A stretch of 64,000 nt of DNA from Nitrososphaeraceae archaeon (GTDB lineage: Archaea; Thermoproteota; Nitrososphaeria; Nitrososphaerales; Nitrososphaeraceae): NCBI GenBank assembly GCA_042138015.1, contig JBHIVA010000004.1, positions 1,984 to 65,983 of the forward strand, given 5' to 3'. The notes under the pieces were generated by a model. The model was not told the origin of the DNA and searched no databases. It saw nothing but the letters and a program-made list of their open reading frames with translations. Shown piece after piece: positions 20,165-32,299 of the stretch. How positions within the stretch are numbered: position 1 is the stretch's first letter; the number at the start of each line of letters is the position of its first letter. The position numbers were made by a program, and so were the translations under genes.

Positions 20165-20295
20165 TTGGTGCTAAAAGGCTTCAAACTAGATTATATCCTA
20201 GTTTTAATTACTTTTCTATTCCCATTTATAACTCGTCATTCTAGATATTACATTTATTTCCAATGGTTTTAATATTTGGAGGTTAATATGATTTT

Positions 20296-20583
20296 ATGGA
20301 TTTATTTCACCATGATAAATTTAAATGTGAATTGGACAATGATAAGTTTCAAACGTATGAAGAATTAATTGATCATACTAGACATATCCATCACCATACT
20401 ATTTTAAAATGTGAGACTTGTGGCAAGGAGTTTATTCATGAAAAAGACAGACTTCACCATGTAAGGGAAGAACATGAAAAAGAGTATGATAGAAGAGAAC
20501 ATAAAGATATTTACAAGAAGAGTCATAAAACACCACAAGATCAAGTAAACGAATCTACTACACACTTTAGTGATAATTTCTAA
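20296..20583 (+). CDS. Tandem C2H2-type zinc-finger protein, His-rich
   Basis: CELD...HTRHIH and CETC...HVREEH. Confidence 0.8.
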   Translation: MDLFHHDKFKCELDNDKFQTYEELIDHTRHIHHHTILKCETCGKEFIHEKDRLHHVREEHEKEYDRREHKDIYKKSHKTPQDQVNESTTHFSDNF

Positions 20584-22583: not shown

Positions 22584-23378
22584 GTGACTAAAGCATATCC
22601 AATATATCATTATGCTGCTCTTATACTAGAAACTGAAGAGAGAATAAAAAATAAAAAAAAATCATATTTAATCTTATCCGATCTGCATTTGGGGTTTGAA
22701 TATGAATTGATAAAAAAAGGAATTACTCTCAATTCCAATACTATACTAAATAATATTCTAAATGATATTAATGAAATTACTAAATCACACAAAATTGATG
22801 GAATAGTAATTCTAGGTGATATTAAAAGTTCAATTTCAGAAATTTCTCCAATAGAATGGAATATAATACCGACTTTTTTTGAAAAATTGTCGAGAAATAC
22901 AGACATTATATTAGTACCAGGTAACCATGATGCCAATATAAATAGACTCATTCCAGATAACGTCATAACCTGTAATGTGAGTGGACTTGTTATTGATGAT
23001 ACATTGTTATTGCATGGACATTCTCTTCCAAATAAAGTAAAATCAAATATAAATAAAATAATAATGGGTCACGTCCATCCTATTTTTTTTGATCCTAAGA
23101 GTACGGTTCATGGAAAAAGGTTATGGATCTACCTCAAGGTAAAGAAAGAATCTCTCTACGGACTCGAAAAAAAAGGTATAATGGAAATGATTATAGTTCC
23201 AACATTCAACAAATATTTTTATTCTTCTACTTCTAATTATAGATCTTTTGAAACATCGATATCACCAATTATTAATTTATTAAATAAACAGAATGCGATA
23301 TTATCTAGTATGGTACTTACTTTAGAAGGTTCTAATATTGGTGACTTTGGAAAATTAAAAAATCTGAATTTTTATTGA
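22584..23378 (+). CDS. Metallophosphoesterase (calcineurin-like)
   Basis: SDLHLG, LGDIK, PGNHD, HGH, GHVHP. Confidence 0.9.
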   Translation: MTKAYPIYHYAALILETEERIKNKKKSYLILSDLHLGFEYELIKKGITLNSNTILNNILNDINEITKSHKIDGIVILGDIKSSISEISPIEWNIIPTFFEKLSRNTDIILVPGNHDANINRLIPDNVITCNVSGLVIDDTLLLHGHSLPNKVKSNINKIIMGHVHPIFFDPKSTVHGKRLWIYLKVKKESLYGLEKKGIMEMIIVPTFNKYFYSSTSNYRSFETSISPIINLLNKQNAILSSMVLTLEGSNIGDFGKLKNLNFY

Positions 23379-26300
23379 TCTATCGCATTAATTTCGGTAT
23401 CTGTCAGATAATTTTTTAAAGGAATAATAGTAGTTGAATTATTTTTTTGCCATTCCAATGTTTTTACAAATGAGATAGCTGCTTCTATAGTTGTCATTAC
23501 AGGAATGCCCATTTCGACAGCCTTCCTCCGTATTTGATATTCATCAGTTAGCATATCTAGATATTTTTCCATCGTTACAGTGGCAGGAATATTTATTATA
23601 AAATCTATTTTACGGTCATATAATAATTCGATAATGTTTGGTTTTCGATCGGGTTCACTTATTTTGTATACTCTCTGAATTTTAGTAAATCCATTATTTT
23701 CTAAAAAATCAGCAGTATGTTCAGTTGCTAAAATATTGAAGTCCATCGAAGAGATTAATGAAAGTAGAGGAAGTAATTTTTCTTTGTTTTTTTGACCCCC
23801 TATGGTAATTAAGGAAGTCCCGCAGTATGGTAATGAATAGCCCGCTGCTGTGAAAGACTTGCTTAAAGCATCATAAAAACTTGTTCCAAAACATGCTACT
23901 TCTCCTGTGGATTGCATTTCAACTCCCAGTACTATATCAGCACCTTCGAGTTGCATAAAGGAAAATTGCGGAACTTTTATACCAAAGCCACTCGTTTTTA
24001 GCCAAAGATCTTTAATTTGAGGTAAAGACTTTCCAAGCATAGCTTTCGCGGAAAGATTTATAAGATTTACTCCTATGTATTTTGAAACAAAAGGTAATGA
24101 TCTAGATGCTCTAATATTTGCCTCTATCACCAAAACATTATCATCTTTAACAAGAAATTGGATATTAAATGGGCCTATTACATTAAGAGATCGAACAATC
24201 TTATTAGAATAATCGGTTATAGTATCCATGATGTCTCTACTTAATCTCCAAGGCGGAATACACATCATAGCATCGCCAGAATGTATTCCTGCATTATCAA
24301 TATGTTCTATAATAGAACCTATAATTACATTTTCTTTTGTACCTACTCCATCTATTTCTACTTCTGAAGCTTCCTGAAAAAATTTACTAATAACAATTGG
24401 ATGGTCCGGACTCACAACAGTAGCATTTTTTATAAATTTTTCTAGTTGATTATCATCCCATACTACCTTCATCGCTGCTCCACTCAAAACATAGGAGGGC
24501 CTAACTAAAACCGGATATCCTACCGTTCTAGAAAAGACAAAGGCTTCTTCAAGAGTATTGAATTTTTTCCATGGAGGTTGTGGAATTTTTAACGAATCAA
24601 GTAATTTTCCAAACTTTTCTCTATCCTCAGCTTTATCTACATCCTTGCTATCGGTTCCAATTATTTTTATACCATTTTGTGCGAGTCTTAACGTTAAGTT
24701 ATTAGCAGTTTGACCCCCCACACAAGTTATCACGCCAGGATATTTTTCTTTTTCACAGATGTCCATAACACGTTCAAAACTGAGCTCTTCAAAATACAAT
24801 CTATCAGAGATATCAAAATCAGTAGAAACTGTTTCAGGGTTACAGTTTATGACTGATACGTCATGTACCCCATTTTCCTTTAATCCTATAACCATATTAA
24901 CTGTACCCCAGTCAAATTCTACACTACTCCCTATTCTATAAGGACCTGCTCCAAGAACTATAACATTATTAATCCTCTTTGGGATTCTAATATCGTCAGT
25001 ATCACCACCATATGTAAGGTAAAGATAATTAGTTTGCGCAGGCCATTCTGCAGCCAATGTATCAATCTGCTTGATGACAGGTTCTATCCCAAATTTTTTT
25101 CTGAATTTACGGATAGTTATTTCATCTAAATTTAGATAAGAGGTCAGTTGTTTATCCGAAAACCCTAATTTTTTAGATTCTTTTATAATATTCTCATCGA
25201 AATCAACTCCCAACATCCTTAGTTTTTTTTCCATTTTTATTATGTTATTTATTTTATTAAGAAACCAAGGATCTATACTTGATAGCTCGTTTATCCTTTC
25301 AATCGTCATACCACTAGAAAGCGCTCTAACAAGTTGAAACAAAATATTATCATCTGGATACAAAAGCGCAAATTCTATTTTTTCTAGTTCTTCTTCATTA
25401 GGATCTATAAAGTCAGAATTATCCACTAGGCCTATTTTTCCAGAATCACACATTCTTATTGCTTTTTGAATCGCCTCTTCAAAATTTCTACCAATTGCCA
25501 TAACTTCTCCTACTGATTTCATAGCTGTCCCTAGTCTACGGTTAACATTCTCAAACTTATTGAAATCCCATCGTGGCATTTTTAAAACTATATAATCAAG
25601 TGAGGGCTCGAAAAAAGCAGTAGTTTTCTTTGTGACCTTATTTATTAATTCATCCAATGAATATCCAATACCTAACTTTGCAGCCATATATGCTAGAGGA
25701 TATCCAGTTGCCTTGCTAGCAAGAGATGAAGATCGGGACAATCTCGCGTTTATCTCAATCGCACAGTATTCTTCACTTTTAGGGTCAAGTCCAAATTGTA
25801 TATTACACTCTCCAATAATACCAACCTCTTTCGTACCTCGGATCGCTGCAGACCGCAGCATGTGATATTCATAATTGTTAAGTGTCTGTGAAGGAGCTAC
25901 TACAATATTATCACCAGTATGAACTCGCATCGCCAAGATGTTTTCCATGTTGCATACAATGATGGAATTACCTCTATAATCCCTCATCACTTCATATTCT
26001 ATTTGTTTCCAATGACCTACGTATTTTTCTATTAAGACTTGATGAGTCATACTGATAGACAATCCTCGATGCACAATCTCTTGTAATTCATATTCATTAT
26101 GTGCTACTCCTCCTCCCTTTCCTCCAAGTGTGTAAGCAACTCTGATAATTATTGGATAACCCATCTTCTTAGCGATATCTATTGATTCTTTTACAGAATA
26201 TGCTGGGGAACTAGGTAAAACAGGTATTTCACTTTTTTGCATAGCCTCCTTAAAAAGCTGTCTGTCTTCAGTCCTTTCTATACCTCTGACGGGTGTTCCA

Positions 26301-26682
26301 AGAACTGTTATTCCATATTTTTTAAGAATACCTCCTTTGAATAATGCGGTACCACAGTTTAAAGCAGTTTGACCACCAAAAGATAACATAATTGAATCTG
26401 GTCTTTCAATTTCTAATATCTTAGAAACGTATTCAGGAGTAATAGGTAGCAAGTATACTTTATCAGAGAATCTAGAATCTGTCTGAATAGTAGCAATATT
26501 TGGATTAACTAATATTGTTTTAATTCCTTCTTCTCTCAACGCCTTGAGACATTGTGAACCAGAGTAATCAAATTAGCGGTCATCTAATGAAGATAACTTT
26601 CGCCTGCTTCTCCGATTTTTATTGCCCCACTCCCTAACACTATAACCTTCTTTATATCGTTATTTTTTGGTATTTTTTTCAC
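23372..26682 (-). CDS. carB: Carbamoyl-phosphate synthase large subunit; exon 1 26682-26599, exon 2 26572-23372
   Basis: Exon 1 reads KKVIVLGSGAIKIGEAGE; exon 2 reads FDYSGSQCLKALREEG and continues into the 1055-aa ORF with two ATP-grasp halves and an MGS domain. Joined length is 1094 aa from the GTG at 26682. Confidence 0.93.
26573..26598 (-). other. 26-nt bulge-helix-bulge intron in carB pre-mRNA
   Basis: GGCG-AA^A-GUUAUCU-UCAUU-AGAUGAC-CGCU-AA^U: 4-bp central helix, two 3-nt bulges and a 7-bp inner stem. Cuts after the second bulge nucleotide restore the frame exactly. Confidence 0.85.
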
Positions 26683-26731: not shown

Positions 26732-27838
26732 TCATCTCTTATTTAAATCAATAATTTCCATAAATTTATCAAAAACAAAAGTACAGTCATATGGACCAGG
26801 TGACGCTTCTGGATGGAATTGTACTGCTATAGCAGGTTTATTTTTATGAATTATTCCTTCTAGAGTCTTGTCATCAGGATTATAAAACCATGGTTCGAAT
26901 CCTGTCCTGTCGAGTGTTTTAGGATCAATTCCATATCCGTGATTTTGACTAGTGATATAAGATCTTTTATCTTCAATATTAATACATGTTTTATTTTGGC
27001 CTCTGTGACCATATTTTAATTTAAATGTATCTGCTCCGGCTGATAAAGCAAGAATTTGATTTCCTAGACAAATACCAAGAGTTGGAATAGCACTTTCCAT
27101 TAATTGTTTTACTGTGTTGATTGTTTCTTGACACATTTTAGGATCTCCTGGTCCATTACTAATCACTACACCTTGAGGGTTATTCGATACAACCTCACTA
27201 AAAGAGGCGTTCCAAGGAAGTTGGACTACTTTATATCCTCTCCTTAGGAAATTTCTAATAATACTAAATTTAGTTCCCGTATCTAATAATACTATAATCC
27301 TATCATCCGAATTACCATATATTTGTATATCTCGAGAACTTACTGTCGACATAAAATTTTTATTATTATAATTATCTTTCTCGAAAATGGCTGATACATC
27401 CAACTTTTTAAGATGGGTTTTAGAAGATGAAATAATTCCCATCATTACACCATGCTGACGAATTATTTTTGTTAATTCTCTAGTATCTATTCCAAATATT
27501 CCGGGAATCTTTTCTTGATATAACCATTCATCAAGTGTTTTTACACAACTCCAATGACTGGCAACATCTGAAAGGTTATGAACAACCAAACCACTACATT
27601 GTATTTTATCAGACTCAAAAAATTTCGGTAAACCAAACTCATCCAAAGTAGTTCGAGCGGGTACTCCATAGTTTCCAATGAGAGGATATGTCAGACATAA
27701 TATTTGTCCACTATATGAAGGATCAGTTAGACTCTCAGTATATCCAACCATCCCTGTGTTAAAGACTACCTCACCAGAACAGACGGAAGGGTAACCAAAT
27801 CCAATACCTGAAAAAACTTTACCACTTTCCAATATCAA
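26732..27838 (-). CDS. carA: Carbamoyl-phosphate synthase small subunit
   Basis: GEVVFNTGMVGY, LTDPSYSGQ, SNGPGDP, GICLGNQ, QFHPEASPGP. Confidence 0.97.
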   Translation of the reverse strand: MILESGKVFSGIGFGYPSVCSGEVVFNTGMVGYTESLTDPSYSGQILCLTYPLIGNYGVPARTTLDEFGLPKFFESDKIQCSGLVVHNLSDVASHWSCVKTLDEWLYQEKIPGIFGIDTRELTKIIRQHGVMMGIISSSKTHLKKLDVSAIFEKDNYNNKNFMSTVSSRDIQIYGNSDDRIIVLLDTGTKFSIIRNFLRRGYKVVQLPWNASFSEVVSNNPQGVVISNGPGDPKMCQETINTVKQLMESAIPTLGICLGNQILALSAGADTFKLKYGHRGQNKTCINIEDKRSYITSQNHGYGIDPKTLDRTGFEPWFYNPDDKTLEGIIHKNKPAIAVQFHPEASPGPYDCTFVFDKFMEIIDLNKR

Positions 27839-28130
27839 TTCTGCATTATACCCAGTATATTTTTGATAAAGTGTAGGAATTTTGTATCTCTATTAGTAAA
27901 AAATAAAGAAAATTTAAATTTTTCTATATAATACTACCAGTTTGCATTTAGGTTTCAGTTCTCATAAAGTATTATTCTAATTTTTTCCTCTTGTATATAA
28001 ATAAATTTTCCATATTTACAAAGCATGCTAAGATTTGTTTATTTTTTTTATCTAATTCATAACTAGAACTTCGCTTTTTATAGGTTATTCTGTAAATAAT
28101 TTTCTTTAAAACTTGTTACAAATAAGGTTT

Positions 28131-28149
28131 GGAAAAAGCAGTTTATATT
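28131..28149 (+). promoter_or_regulatory. BRE plus TATA promoter with no adjacent ORF
   Basis: GGAAAAA followed by TTTATATT; the next + strand ORF is about 880 nt away. Confidence 0.35.
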
Positions 28150-28171
28150 AAAAGATCCTATCCTTTCATAA

Positions 28172-28230
28172 ATTAAGATAATCAAGCGGTCATTTGATAT
28201 CAGAATTTCGGAGGCTGATACTTGTGATTT
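28172..28230 (+). ncRNA. Candidate C/D-box-like small RNA
   Basis: Starts at the expected TSS distance from the TATA. Degenerate C box AAGATAA (28175-28181), GC-rich guide TCAAGCGGTCAT, TTGA (D'), guide ATTTCGGAGG, CTGA (28215-28218), then a T run. The C' box is poor. Confidence 0.3.
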
Positions 28231-29027
28231 TACTTAAAAATAAATAAAACGAATAATAACAATTATAAATTTTCAGGATATAATAATATAATAAACTCAA
28301 TTTTGATGCAATTAATATCTTTCGAAACCTTACTCGTTTAATAATTTTATTCTATCTCATATTCTTTTTTTCATTAACATAAATTTTATTATCTAGTTTA
28401 GATTTTTTCGGGTTTTCGTATTGAATTAATATCCTCTTTTCTAGGAAATACGATCTATTTTATACTACTAGACTTGAACACTAATCATATTCAAAAAAAT
28501 TTCAAAGAATGAAAGATATACTTTAGGAATATCGAATAAACTAATTTTTACATTTTCAGTTTTAATTAATTATATTGAACTTAGACGATGAACCTATTAC
28601 TAAGAAACATTGCGTATTCGATTTCTATTTTTCTATCGATATTAAATTCTAGAATATACTTTATTCATTAGTTTTCAGAGGTGATTAAAATTCTAATATG
28701 AAAATTTATAGAATATACCCAACCGATCGGAAAGTATGAGGAAATAAGTGTTAAAATCAGAACTTAAACTTTTCAAGATAATCAATTCATCTCCTAGTTT
28801 CTTTTTCTGGATATTGGTAATAATCAATAATTAATTAGAACAAAAAAATCTAGAAAAACCGGAAAGATCTTACCAATAGACTTTAATTTCAACGTAGAAA
28901 AACTCTATTTGTTTGAGTTATACTTTTGAAATTATGATAATCGTTAGTAGAGGTTTAAATAAAGATGAAAATGTTATTTCTTTAAAACTAATATTATCGG
29001 GTATTGTATTATTATTGATTCCCTATA

Positions 29028-30639: not shown

Positions 30640-31296
30640 TTAATTGAGATTTTGTCTTAAGTCCTCACAATCATCAGTATGCGAATCTCCTTGCTTTGAA
30701 TCAAAATCTATAACCATATCAAAATCTTCGCCACAACTAAAAAAATCTGCTCCTTTTCCTCCTTTAAGGATATCACTCCCGTAATCACCATAAAGTTCAT
30801 CATTCCCATCATCTCCAGATAAATAATCATCCCCATAAGATCCTATTAGATTGTCATTCCCTTTACCGCCGAATAAAAAATCATCACCAGAAGAACCAAG
30901 TAAATTATCTTCACCATCATCCCCATAAATTTCGTCATCATTGCTACCTCCATTAAGAATATCGTCACCACTTTTTCCAGAAATAACATCCAGTCCTTCT
31001 CTCCCATAGATAATATCCGATTTTAAAGTACCAGTAAGGTCTCTATTGATATCAATAGATTCATCGGGTTGAATTGTACATTTTGCATTTTGCACTGAAA
31101 ATGATGTTCCATTATTAACCAAACTAAATGAAAATTGACCTGATTGGTCAGAACATACTGTACCTATTTTTATATTTTTTGAATTATCTTTATTCTCGTT
31201 TTCGGATCCTGACGAATAAACTTTGTGGAAAAAAAGATTAGGTAATATAATAATCATCAATAAAAGAAAAATTGATAATATAGTCCCAGAATTCAT
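30640..31296 (-). CDS. Secreted RTX-type (hemolysin-like) calcium-binding repeat protein
   Basis: Signal peptide and about 10 GGxGxDxLx-like nonapeptides; C-terminal CGEDFD...DCE. Confidence 0.9.
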   Translation of the reverse strand: MNSGTILSIFLLLMIIILPNLFFHKVYSSGSENENKDNSKNIKIGTVCSDQSGQFSFSLVNNGTSFSVQNAKCTIQPDESIDINRDLTGTLKSDIIYGREGLDVISGKSGDDILNGGSNDDEIYGDDGEDNLLGSSGDDFLFGGKGNDNLIGSYGDDYLSGDDGNDELYGDYGSDILKGGKGADFFSCGEDFDMVIDFDSKQGDSHTDDCEDLRQNLN

Positions 31297-31645: not shown

Positions 31646-32299
31646 ATGAAGTACAGTTATTTGGCCATATTCATTACTTACTTTACAGCAAAATCAAAAA
31701 TTCCTTTATCTTACAAATTTGTCAACAAGTATCTAATTATATTATTATTATTTAATATATTTATTTTGATTCATTTCATCATGGTTAATGATCTAATGAA
31801 TGTTTATGGAAGATCTTCTTTTTGTGATGGTTCTGTATTAGTTGATTCGGATTACAGCAAAGGAAAGGTTTTAGTTGGAACATCAAATTTAGAATCACCA
31901 GATTGTATAATTGGAACTAAGAAAAATAATGTCATTTTAGGCCTAGATGGGCCTGACATACTATATGGTAAGAAAGGAAATGATACCTTAAAAGGAGGTT
32001 TTGGAAATGATAAAATATTCGGGAATTCTGGAGATGATAAAATTATTGGATCTGAAGGCGATGATCAACTCTATGGTAATAAAGGAAACGACTTTGTTTA
32101 TGGCGGATTCGATTCAGACTTTTTAAGTGGAGGGCATGGGAACGACAAACTCTATGGAGATTATGGTGATGATGTCCTAGAGGGAGGAAAAGGGGTAGAT
32201 TTCTTTGATTGTGGAGAAGATTACGATGTGATACTGGATTATAGTTCTTCAGAAGGTGATTCGCAAGTTAATTGTGAAGAAATAAATAAAAAAGATTAA
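31646..32299 (+). CDS. Secreted RTX-type calcium-binding repeat protein (paralogue of the preceding gene)
   Basis: Same nonapeptide repeats and CGEDYD...NCE tail; true start probably downstream of 31646. Confidence 0.88.
   Translation: MKYSYLAIFITYFTAKSKIPLSYKFVNKYLIILLLFNIFILIHFIMVNDLMNVYGRSSFCDGSVLVDSDYSKGKVLVGTSNLESPDCIIGTKKNNVILGLDGPDILYGKKGNDTLKGGFGNDKIFGNSGDDKIIGSEGDDQLYGNKGNDFVYGGFDSDFLSGGHGNDKLYGDYGDDVLEGGKGVDFFDCGEDYDVILDYSSSEGDSQVNCEEINKKD

What the first reader, a model, noticed from the sequence alone, without database searches (positions are those of the whole stretch)
26573..26598. Bulge-helix-bulge intron inside the carB coding sequence
Seen in sequence: the conserved CarB N-terminus (GSGAIKIGEAGE / FDYSGSQCLKAL) is split by the 26-nt insert AGTTATCTTCATTAGATGACCGCTAA. 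The insert shifts the frame and contains an in-frame TAG (26586-26584), so unspliced mRNA gives only a 32-aa peptide. The RNA folds as exon GGCG paired with intron CGCU (4 bp), an AAA bulge, GUUAUCU/AGAUGAC (7 bp, 5-nt loop) and an AAU bulge. Cutting after the second nucleotide of each bulge joins GAA to UUU, restoring E-F with no base to spare. Exon-exon pairing next to the 3' bulge is irregular, but AAUCGGAG/CUCUGGUU pairs further out. Established: this is the substrate geometry of the archaeal tRNA splicing endonuclease (EndA); heteromeric EndA of TACK archaea accepts relaxed BHB forms; cbf5 of Crenarchaeota is the classic protein-coding example. Inference: carbamoyl-phosphate synthase expression here depends on EndA and an RNA ligase, which could make splicing a control point for arginine and pyrimidine synthesis. 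I know of no description of a carB intron but could not check the literature.
Basis: partly seen in the sequence, partly recalled or inferred. Interest (0 to 1): 0.95.

Follow-up and report, generated by a model that had tools for sequence, protein, structure and literature searches.

The report
tRNA-type mini-intron splitting archaeal carB
The gene for the large subunit of carbamoyl-phosphate synthase in this soil ammonia-oxidising archaeon is broken by a 26-base hairpin shaped like a tRNA intron, which is conserved at the same spot in most of its relatives and almost certainly has to be cut out of the mRNA, as was previously described for only one other archaeal protein gene (cbf5).

Summary
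On the minus strand, carB is split after codon 28 by 26 nt (26598..26573). The insert carries an in-frame TAG. Removing it restores an intact 1094-aa CarB, the only carB in the genome.

The window comes from a Nitrososphaeraceae MAG. An insert sits at the same E|F codon boundary in all same-genus genomes where the junction could be read. It is also present in most other Nitrososphaerales: 58 of 103 junctions, 20-52 nt long. All 23 inserts whose length is a multiple of three carry in-frame stops.

The inner stem covaries strongly. The 4-bp exon-intron helix is 96% paired, with one compensatory change (GGUG/CACC). The exons are constrained at synonymous sites only where the insert is present.

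The genome encodes a crenarchaeal-type catalytic EndA subunit, a divergent second subunit, and RtcB.

The best reading is a relaxed bulge-helix-bulge intron that is inherited vertically and occasionally lost precisely. Intron-less contigs exist, but their sample types are unknown.

No published description was found; only cbf5 is cited as a precedent.

The parts
26732..27838 (-). carA (glutaminase small subunit), directly upstream of carB and probably co-transcribed with it
   Evidence: Pfam CPSase_sm_chain 7e-49 and GATase 8.7e-49
26599..26682 (-). carB exon 1: GTG start plus 27 codons, ending ...GGC GAA (Gly-Glu)
   Evidence: the N-terminus VKKIPKNNDIKKVIVLGSGAIKIGEAGE is conserved in relatives
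26573..26598 (-). 26-nt bulge-helix-bulge intron AGUUAUCUUCAUUAGAUGACCGCUAA, with an in-frame UAG at 26586..26584
   Evidence: homologous inserts of 20-52 nt at the same site in 58 junctions
23372..26572 (-). carB exon 2 (codons 29-1094 plus stop), starting UUU GAU UAC (F-D-Y)
26601..26604 (-). Central helix H, exon strand GGCG. It pairs with intron CGCU at 26578..26575.
   Evidence: 96.4% of cells paired across 35 sequences; GGUG/CACC compensatory in L034
26575..26578 (-). Central helix H, intron strand CGCU
26598..26600 (-). 5' bulge A-A|A. The predicted 5' cut lies between 26599 and 26598.
   Evidence: The cut position is fixed by species whose intron ends ...UAU or whose exon ends GAG, where only this register restores E-F.
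26591..26597 (-). Inner helix h', 5' arm GUUAUCU
   Evidence: 6 of 7 pairs show compensatory changes
26579..26585 (-). Inner helix h', 3' arm AGAUGAC
26572..26574 (-). 3' bulge A-A|U. The predicted 3' cut lies between 26573 and 26572. In the consensus fold it is part of a 1x5 internal loop, which is a relaxed form.
26610..26616 (-). Distal exon-exon helix, 5' arm AUCGGAG
   Evidence: 6.82 of 7 pairs in intron-bearing genes versus 4.67 of 7 in intron-less genes
26558..26564 (-). Distal exon-exon helix, 3' arm CUCUGGU

Best explanation
The 26 nt are an archaeal endonuclease-type (bulge-helix-bulge) intron inside the carB coding sequence of a Nitrososphaeraceae ammonia-oxidising archaeon. In the carA-carB transcript, exon nucleotides GGCG pair with intron CGCU to form the 4-bp central helix. 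The intron's own 7-bp hairpin forms the inner helix. A distal exon-exon helix (AUCGGAG/CUCUGGU) closes the structure. The heteromeric (alpha-beta) splicing endonuclease would cut after the second nucleotide of the 5' AAA bulge and after the AA of the 3' AAU(U) loop. RtcB would then join ...GGCGAA to UUUGAU..., restoring Glu28-Phe29 and a 1094-aa CarB, and releasing a tiny (probably circular) intron. Unspliced mRNA can only give a 32-aa peptide. What is shown: the sequence anatomy, restoration of the frame in silico, conservation of site and fold with covariation, exon constraint, and presence of the enzymes. What is inferred: actual cleavage and ligation in vivo, and which enzymes perform them. 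The intron is old. It is shared by Nitrososphaeraceae and many Nitrosopumilaceae, is inherited vertically, and has been deleted precisely in a few lineages.
For: (1) Removing the insert restores intact CarB, and this is the only carB in a 98.5%-complete genome.

(2) The same E|F site carries an insert in every same-genus genome where the junction was found, and in other families of the order. Lengths are 20-52 nt, covering all three classes modulo 3.

(3) All 23 inserts whose length is a multiple of three carry an in-frame stop, as do 39 of 44 unique inserts overall.

(4) Covariation: 6 of 7 h' pairs show changes on both sides. H is 96% paired, with GGUG/CACC compensatory. The covariation score is 0.253 against 0.153 for shuffles (0 of 500 reach it) and at most 0.087 for slid partners. 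RNAalifold independently recovers H, the 3-nt 5' bulge and h'.

(5) Exon constraint: the Gly27 codon is GGC in 50 of 51 intron-bearing genes, and the single GGT is compensated. In intron-less genes it is scattered over 8 codons (Gly and Ala). The distal exon helix forms 6.82 of 7 pairs versus 4.67 of 7.

(6) Machinery: a 194-aa EndA most similar to the catalytic subunits of crenarchaeal heterotetramers (2cv8_A 5e-44, 3p1z_B 1.6e-41); a second, divergent 207-aa EndA-family ORF without the catalytic His context; and RtcB. ARAGORN also tRNA genes with introns.

(7) Tree: the intron state needs only 4 changes on 97 CarB N-termini, against a shuffled mean of 32.

(8) Contig L199 (JGI) is 91% identical over 3.3 kb to an intron-bearing Nitrosocosmicus-like genome. 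It is 98% identical in the 150 nt upstream and lacks exactly the 26-nt intron. L199, L156 and L120 all begin within a few codons of the carA start, as transcripts would.
Against: The sample type of the intron-less JGI contigs could not be verified. At least one intron-less Nitrososphaerales-like junction comes from a sample labelled as a metagenome (L210), so intron-less DNA alleles do exist. The 3' splice site is not in a canonical 3-nt bulge closed by at least 2 bp. It lies in a 4-nt bulge or a 1x5 internal loop, so cleavage depends on the relaxed specificity attributed to heteromeric EndA. That specificity is established for Crenarchaeota from the literature and was not tested here. The single-sequence fold z-score is only -2.5.
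Confidence: 0.9

Rival explanations
1. Translational recoding: ribosomes bypass (hop over) or frameshift across the insert, as in phage T4 gene 60, so no RNA splicing is needed.
For: A stable hairpin and a nearby stop codon follow the last sense codon. These are also features of the gene 60 bypass element (from my own knowledge).
Against: Insert lengths fall in all three classes modulo 3 (20-52 nt), so no single frameshift rule fits. There is no matching take-off and landing codon: GAA/GAG is followed at the 3' end by UAA, CAA, AAA, UAU, CAU, AAG and others. The pairing between exon GGCG and the 3' end of the intron, including the GGUG/CACC compensatory change, is what an endonuclease substrate needs, not what a bypass element needs.
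Confidence: 0.03
2. The N-terminal 28 codons are dispensable or made separately. CarB is translated from an internal start in exon 2, and the insert is just a spacer between a relic and the working gene.
For: Gene callers annotate such truncated or frame-shifted products in public databases (P0054, P0108, P0016, P0021).
Against: Exon 1 is conserved at the protein level (GSGAIKIGEAGE, the glycine-rich loop of the first ATP-grasp domain). It keeps its start codon in all relatives and always abuts the insert at the same codon boundary. The longest unspliced ORF starts with TTG at 26539, downstream of the conserved FDYSGSQ motif. A relic would decay and would not covary with the insert.
Confidence: 0.03
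3. Pseudogene, assembly artefact or sequencing artefact in this MAG.
For: The genome is a fragmented MAG of 187 contigs.
Against: The same interruption is found in dozens of independent assemblies, including near-complete genomes on contigs of 0.58 and 1.8 Mb (G012, G017). The rest of the gene is intact over 1066 codons and is the only carB.
Confidence: 0.01
4. A mobile DNA element (a miniature insertion or a homing-endonuclease-driven mini-intron) that recently invaded carB.
For: Earlier notes of this scan report carB mini-introns next to homing-endonuclease genes in DPANN archaea (unverified leads).
Against: Here the neighbours are carA, a metallophosphoesterase, an M24 peptidase and a glycosyltransferase, with no endonuclease. 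The element is single-copy in the genome. Its distribution follows the CarB tree with only 4 state changes.
Confidence: 0.03

Closest known systems
cbf5 pre-mRNA intron of Crenarchaeota (Watanabe 2002; Yoshinari 2006; Yokobori 2009, PMC2738675)
   Same: Both are short BHB-type introns inside a protein-coding sequence. Both occur in archaea with a heteromeric splicing endonuclease, both are needed to restore the reading frame, and both show a patchy gain and loss pattern among relatives.
   Different: The gene differs: carB (central metabolism) rather than cbf5 (RNA modification). The lineage differs: mesophilic ammonia oxidisers of Nitrososphaerota rather than thermophilic Desulfurococcales and Sulfolobales. 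cbf5 in this genome is one uninterrupted 342-codon frame. The carB intron sits 28 codons into the gene, and its 3' site is relaxed. Splicing of cbf5 has been shown experimentally; splicing of carB has not been shown here.
Archaeal tRNA and rRNA BHB introns and processing stems (hBHBh' and relaxed HBh' motifs)
   Same: The geometry matches: a 4-bp central helix between exon and intron, a 3-nt bulge with the cut after its second nucleotide, and an intronic hairpin. The size range is like that of this genome's own tRNA introns, which are mostly 13-38 nt.
   Different: The substrate is an mRNA without a tRNA body. The outer helix next to the 3' bulge is replaced by an internal loop plus a distal 7-bp exon helix.
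BHB intron in the 5' UTR of HVO_1309 mRNA of Haloferax volcanii (Schwarz 2020, PMC7714728)
   Same: Both are mRNAs processed by EndA.
   Different: The Haloferax intron lies in the untranslated leader and does not interrupt the reading frame. That paper states that cbf5 is the only other mRNA example known.

Membership tests
Archaeal endonuclease-type (BHB) intron | 4-bp central helix H formed by exon and intron strands | tested here: met
   GGCG/CGCU in the window. 96.4% of cells are paired in 35 sequences, with one compensatory GGUG/CACC.
Archaeal endonuclease-type (BHB) intron | 3-nt 5' bulge flanked by H and an intronic helix h' | tested here: met
   The AAA bulge and a 7-bp h' are present. 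The consensus fold keeps a 3-nt bulge, and h' has 6 of 7 covarying pairs.
Archaeal endonuclease-type (BHB) intron | 3-nt 3' bulge closed by an exon-exon helix h of at least 2 bp (strict hBHBh') | tested here: not met
   The 3' site lies in a 4-nt bulge (MFE) or a 1x5 internal loop (consensus). The candidate closing pair A21-U varies with the synonymous position of the Ala codon. This fits only the relaxed HBh' class. A distal 7-bp exon helix is conserved instead.
Archaeal endonuclease-type (BHB) intron | Cuts at the symmetric bulge positions give a functional ligated product | tested here: met
   Cutting after the second nucleotide of each bulge restores GAA|UUU and a 1094-aa CarB. The same register works in all 51 unique junctions, including those where alternative registers would change the protein.
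Archaeal endonuclease-type (BHB) intron | The host encodes a splicing endonuclease of the broad-specificity (heteromeric) type and an RtcB ligase | tested here: met
   Two EndA-family ORFs lie on contigs C1 and C2. The first resembles the catalytic subunits of crenarchaeal heterotetramers (2cv8_A, 3p1z_B). The second is divergent and lacks the catalytic His context. RtcB scores 3.4e-176. Heteromer formation itself is inferred.
Archaeal endonuclease-type (BHB) intron | The spliced RNA (and excised intron) exists in vivo | tested here: inconclusive
Intron-less contigs close to intron-bearing genomes exist (L199 and others), but whether they are RNA or DNA could not be established. One intron-less junction is from a labelled metagenome.
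cbf5 pre-mRNA intron family | The intron lies in the cbf5 (TruB-family pseudouridine synthase) gene | tested here: not met
   The interrupted gene is carB. cbf5 in this genome is an uninterrupted 342-codon frame.
Translational bypass element (T4 gene 60 type) | Matching take-off and landing codons flanking the gap | tested here: not met
   The take-off codon is GAA or GAG. The last three nucleotides before exon 2 are UAA, CAA, AAA, UAU, CAU, AAG, CAG, UGU or AAU.
Self-splicing group I / group II intron or intein | Size and catalytic core (hundreds of nt), or an in-frame protein-coding insert without stops | tested here: not met
   The inserts are 20-52 nt. There is no Rfam hit in the window other than one tRNA. 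Stops are present in 39 of 44 inserts.

The most novel reading that the evidence does not exclude
Splicing of the carB intron is not constitutive but conditional. Retention of the intron, which yields only a 32-aa peptide, would then act as a post-transcriptional switch on carbamoyl-phosphate supply in ammonia-oxidising archaea. This would couple the activity of the tRNA-splicing machinery (EndA/RtcB) to arginine and pyrimidine synthesis. It would be the first metabolic gene in Archaea controlled by endonuclease-type splicing, analogous in logic to HAC1/XBP1 splicing in eukaryotes.
Probability: 0.08. Interest if true: 0.92.

Novelty: new member of a known kind. Interest (0 to 1): 0.8.

Why it matters
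If the intron is spliced as predicted, carB becomes the second protein-coding gene family in Archaea whose reading frame depends on the tRNA-splicing endonuclease. It would also be the first such case in a central metabolic enzyme and in the globally abundant ammonia-oxidising Nitrososphaerota.

There is a practical consequence now. Public gene calls for carB in these genomes are truncated or carry chimeric, frame-shifted N-termini (P0016, P0021, P0049, P0054, P0067, P0108). Metabolic reconstructions and protein databases are therefore wrong for this gene.

The family offers a natural series for studying how heteromeric EndA recognises a relaxed mRNA substrate. It includes inserts of 20-52 nt, precise losses, and compensatory exon-intron changes. 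The finding is directly testable in cultured strains and in existing transcriptome and proteome data.

Tried and rejected

2. Spliced transcripts in protein databases. Two searches with the spliced N-terminus found no junction-spanning protein from this genus. Close relatives appear only as truncated or frame-shifted calls. Full-coverage hits are from intron-less lineages (Bathyarchaeia, IGEAAEFDYSG) or are of unknown sample type.

3. Metagenome scan for the spliced junction. It returned 79 contigs, mostly intron-less genomic DNA of other archaea. Six are AOA-like (L199, L179, L189, L186, L156, L120). Their RNA or DNA origin could not be settled: a literature search for the sample ids found nothing, and L210 shows that intron-less DNA alleles exist.

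4. Genome-wide search for further mRNA introns. A strict BHB descriptor plus an ORF-joining filter ranks carB first. The other candidates were ordinary coding sequence (MCM on C13), adjacent genes, or a split coxII with a TAATG overlap. No second case was found, but relaxed motifs and introns longer than 120 nt were not covered.

5. The local alignment score of 27 is within the shuffle range (maximum 33), and the closest relatives have no counterpart upstream of carA. Rejected as chance.

6. Homing endonuclease next to carB (a lead from notes on DPANN genomes). None is present here.

7. Extra copies of the element in the genome. None were found.

Full report
**Observation**

On the minus strand the window reads ...AUCGGAGAAGCAGGCGAA AGUUAUCUUCAUUAGAUGACCGCUAA UUUGAUUACUCUGGUU.... 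The ORF that starts with GTG at 26682 runs 32 codons and stops at the TAG at 26586..26584. The long downstream frame (23372..26572) is in another phase, and its longest unspliced ORF starts only at a TTG at 26539. Deleting 26598..26573 gives a single 1094-aa protein. Its N-terminus, GSGAIKIGEAGEFDYSGSQCLKAL, is the conserved start of the carbamoyl-phosphate synthase large subunit.

**Fold of the single sequence**

RNAfold on 26625..26555 pairs exon GGCG with intron CGCU. It leaves AAA as a 3-nt bulge, forms GUUAUCU/AGAUGAC with a 5-nt loop, leaves AAUU unpaired on the 3' side, and closes with AAUCGGAG.../...CUCUGGUU. The energy is -17.8 kcal/mol with z = -2.5, which is suggestive but not compelling alone.

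The arrangement is that of a canonical pre-tRNA intron (established knowledge, from memory): exon strand of H, then the 5' bulge, the intronic hairpin, the intron strand of H, and the 3' bulge. In that case anticodon-loop nucleotides pair with the intron and both cuts fall after the second bulge nucleotide.

**Organism and gene copy number**

The window is C4:1984-65983 of a 2.6-Mb, 98.5%-complete assembly. Record titles of same-genus contigs name Nitrososphaeraceae and Nitrososphaerales MAGs. The genome has no second carB. The only other strong hit is the internal duplicate half of the same gene. carA lies directly upstream.

**Comparative evidence**

I recovered the E|F junction from 103 loci in relatives and public genomes.
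- 58 junctions carry an insert at exactly this codon boundary; 51 are unique.
- The insert is present in every same-genus genome where the junction could be read.
- It is also present in Nitrososphaera, Nitrosocosmicus, Nitrosopolaris, Nitrosarchaeum, Nitrosotenuis, Nitrosotalea and some Nitrosopumilus.
- It is absent from Bathyarchaeia and other outgroups, from Nitrosopelagicus and a marine Nitrosopumilus clade, and from a few others.
- Lengths are 20-52 nt, in all three classes modulo 3.
- All 23 inserts whose length is a multiple of three contain an in-frame stop, as do 39 of 44 unique inserts overall. None can be read as a peptide insertion.

On a 35-sequence alignment (A1) the structure I specified gives 87% paired cells and a covariation score of 0.253. 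Column shuffles give 0.153 (0 of 500 reach the observed value), and partners slid by 1-3 columns give at most 0.087.
- The inner helix has compensatory changes in 6 of 7 pairs.
- The central helix is 96.4% paired, and the one species with exon GGUG has intron CACC.
- RNAalifold, given no structure, returns H, the 3-nt 5' bulge and h'.

Species whose intron ends ...UAU, or whose exon ends GAG, fix the splice register. Only cuts after the second nucleotide of each bulge keep Glu-Phe.

**Exon constraint**

- The Gly27 codon that supplies three of the four H nucleotides is GGC in 50 of 51 intron-bearing genes. The exception is the compensated GGT. In intron-less genes the codon is spread over eight Gly and Ala codons.
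- The distal exon helix AUCGGAG/CUCYGGU forms 6.82 of 7 pairs with the intron and 4.67 of 7 without it. This includes the closely related intron-less Nitrosopumilaceae, which form 4-5 of 7.
- Third-position entropy around the junction is about half that of intron-less genes. The intron-less set is phylogenetically broader, which is a caveat.

**Departure from the strict motif**

The 3' site is not a 3-nt bulge closed by two or more pairs. It is a 4-nt bulge in the single fold and a 1x5 internal loop in the consensus. The element therefore belongs to the relaxed (HBh') class.

The literature assigns that class to heteromeric and epsilon-type endonucleases (PMC5829648 and PMC2724299 abstracts). 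Consistent with this, the genome encodes:
- a 194-aa EndA most similar to the catalytic subunits of the S. tokodaii, A. pernix and P. aerophilum heterotetramers (5e-44 to 8e-32);
- a second, divergent 207-aa EndA-family protein in which the catalytic His context is replaced;
- RtcB.

ARAGORN finds introns in 10 of the 34 tRNA genes it calls, so the machinery is in regular use.

**Evolution**

A maximum-likelihood tree of 97 CarB N-termini needs only 4 changes of intron state, against a shuffled mean of 32. The simplest reading is one old gain in the ammonia-oxidiser clade followed by a few precise losses. The element is single-copy in this genome, and no endonuclease gene flanks carB. I see no sign of current mobility here.

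**RNA evidence**

Two protein searches with the spliced N-terminus found no junction-spanning product from this genus. Relatives appear as truncated calls or as frame-shifted calls that read through the intron, for example ...SEKQAKVN..DRYFDYSGSQ.

A scan of JGI contigs for the spliced junction found six AOA-like intron-less contigs.
- L199 is 91% identical over 3.3 kb to an intron-bearing Nitrosocosmicus-like genome (L095). It is 98% identical in the 150 nt upstream and differs by a clean 26-nt deletion of the intron.
- L199, L156 and L120 begin within a few codons of the carA start. L199 begins about 46 nt downstream of the start of a TTTATAAA box in L095, as transcript assemblies would.
- I could not verify the sample types.
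- One intron-less junction (L210) is from a sample labelled METAG.

I therefore count this evidence as suggestive only. Earlier notes of this scan claim exact excision in public RNA data for related genomes. I could not test those claims.

**Rivals**

- Recoding by bypass or frameshift fails on the length classes and on the absence of matched take-off and landing codons.
- An internal-start CarB fails on the conservation of exon 1 and on loss of the FDYSG motif.
- An artefact or pseudogene fails because the same interruption recurs in many independent assemblies.
- Recent mobility fails on copy number, neighbours and phylogeny.

**Side checks**

- A genome-wide BHB and ORF-join scan ranks carB first and finds no second convincing case.
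- cbf5 is uninterrupted.
- The proposed small RNA at 28179-28198 is a chance match.

**Literature**

Seven searches found no description of a carB intron. A 2020 study of EndA substrates states that cbf5 is the only reported additional BHB intron in an archaeal mRNA, apart from its own 5'-UTR case (PMC7714728). A 2025 structural paper still cites only the cbf5 work (PMC12397907).

**Verdict**

This is a real, conserved, relaxed bulge-helix-bulge intron in carB. It is a new member of a known kind. It is very probably spliced by EndA and RtcB (confidence about 0.9), though RNA proof is still outstanding. The regulatory idea is unsupported.

Noticed in passing
window 27839-29027: A stretch of about 1.19 kb upstream of carA has no ORF of 90 aa or more and no Rfam hit at gathering threshold. 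It contains the 28179-28198 match to the intron region, which I judged to be chance. What the rest of this gap holds is unknown.
   Followed up: partly
window 30640-31296 (-) and 31646-32299 (+): Two small proteins of about 217 aa carry RTX-type calcium-binding nonapeptide repeats (HemolysinCabind, 1e-18 and 3e-33). They are divergently oriented.
   Followed up: no
own genome G000:C37, about 20279-20331 (- strand): A cytochrome-oxidase-subunit-II-like gene appears split into an 88-codon ORF bearing a transmembrane helix and a 251-codon cupredoxin ORF. The two are joined by an overlapping TAATG stop/start. This is not a BHB intron.
   Followed up: partly
database proteins P0016, P0021, P0049, P0067, P0054, P0108: Public gene calls for carB of intron-bearing Nitrososphaeraceae either start downstream of the intron or read through it in a shifted frame. 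The latter gives chimeric N-termini such as MELLRSEKQAKVNYNDRYFDYSGSQ. This is a systematic annotation error.
   Followed up: partly
own genome, ARAGORN output: Only 34 tRNA genes were called in a 98.5%-complete genome, 10 of them with introns of 7-76 nt, and some calls are odd (tRNA-Stop, tRNA-Cys aca). Several tRNAs probably carry non-canonical introns that ARAGORN misses.
   Followed up: no
L017/L019 (48 nt), L027/L038 and L031/L044 (52 nt), L028/L040 (38 nt): Within the window's own genus some species have expanded introns. The extra length is an A-rich loop, while the BHB core is kept. Intron size changes quickly between close relatives (21, 23, 25, 26, 27, 33, 38, 48 and 52 nt in one genus).
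   Followed up: partly
L060 (a MAG labelled Heimdallarchaeota) and L061 (a MAG labelled Candidatus Acidoferrum): Short contigs in these bins carry a Nitrosarchaeum-type carB with the 21-nt intron, or an archaeal Bathyarchaeia-like carB. They are probably mis-binned contigs.
   Followed up: no
L120, L156, L186: The intron-less AOA-like JGI contigs carry an in-frame stop or frame breaks elsewhere in carB (for example IEK*VGHWKQ in L120). This is compatible with low-coverage, error-prone assemblies.
   Followed up: no
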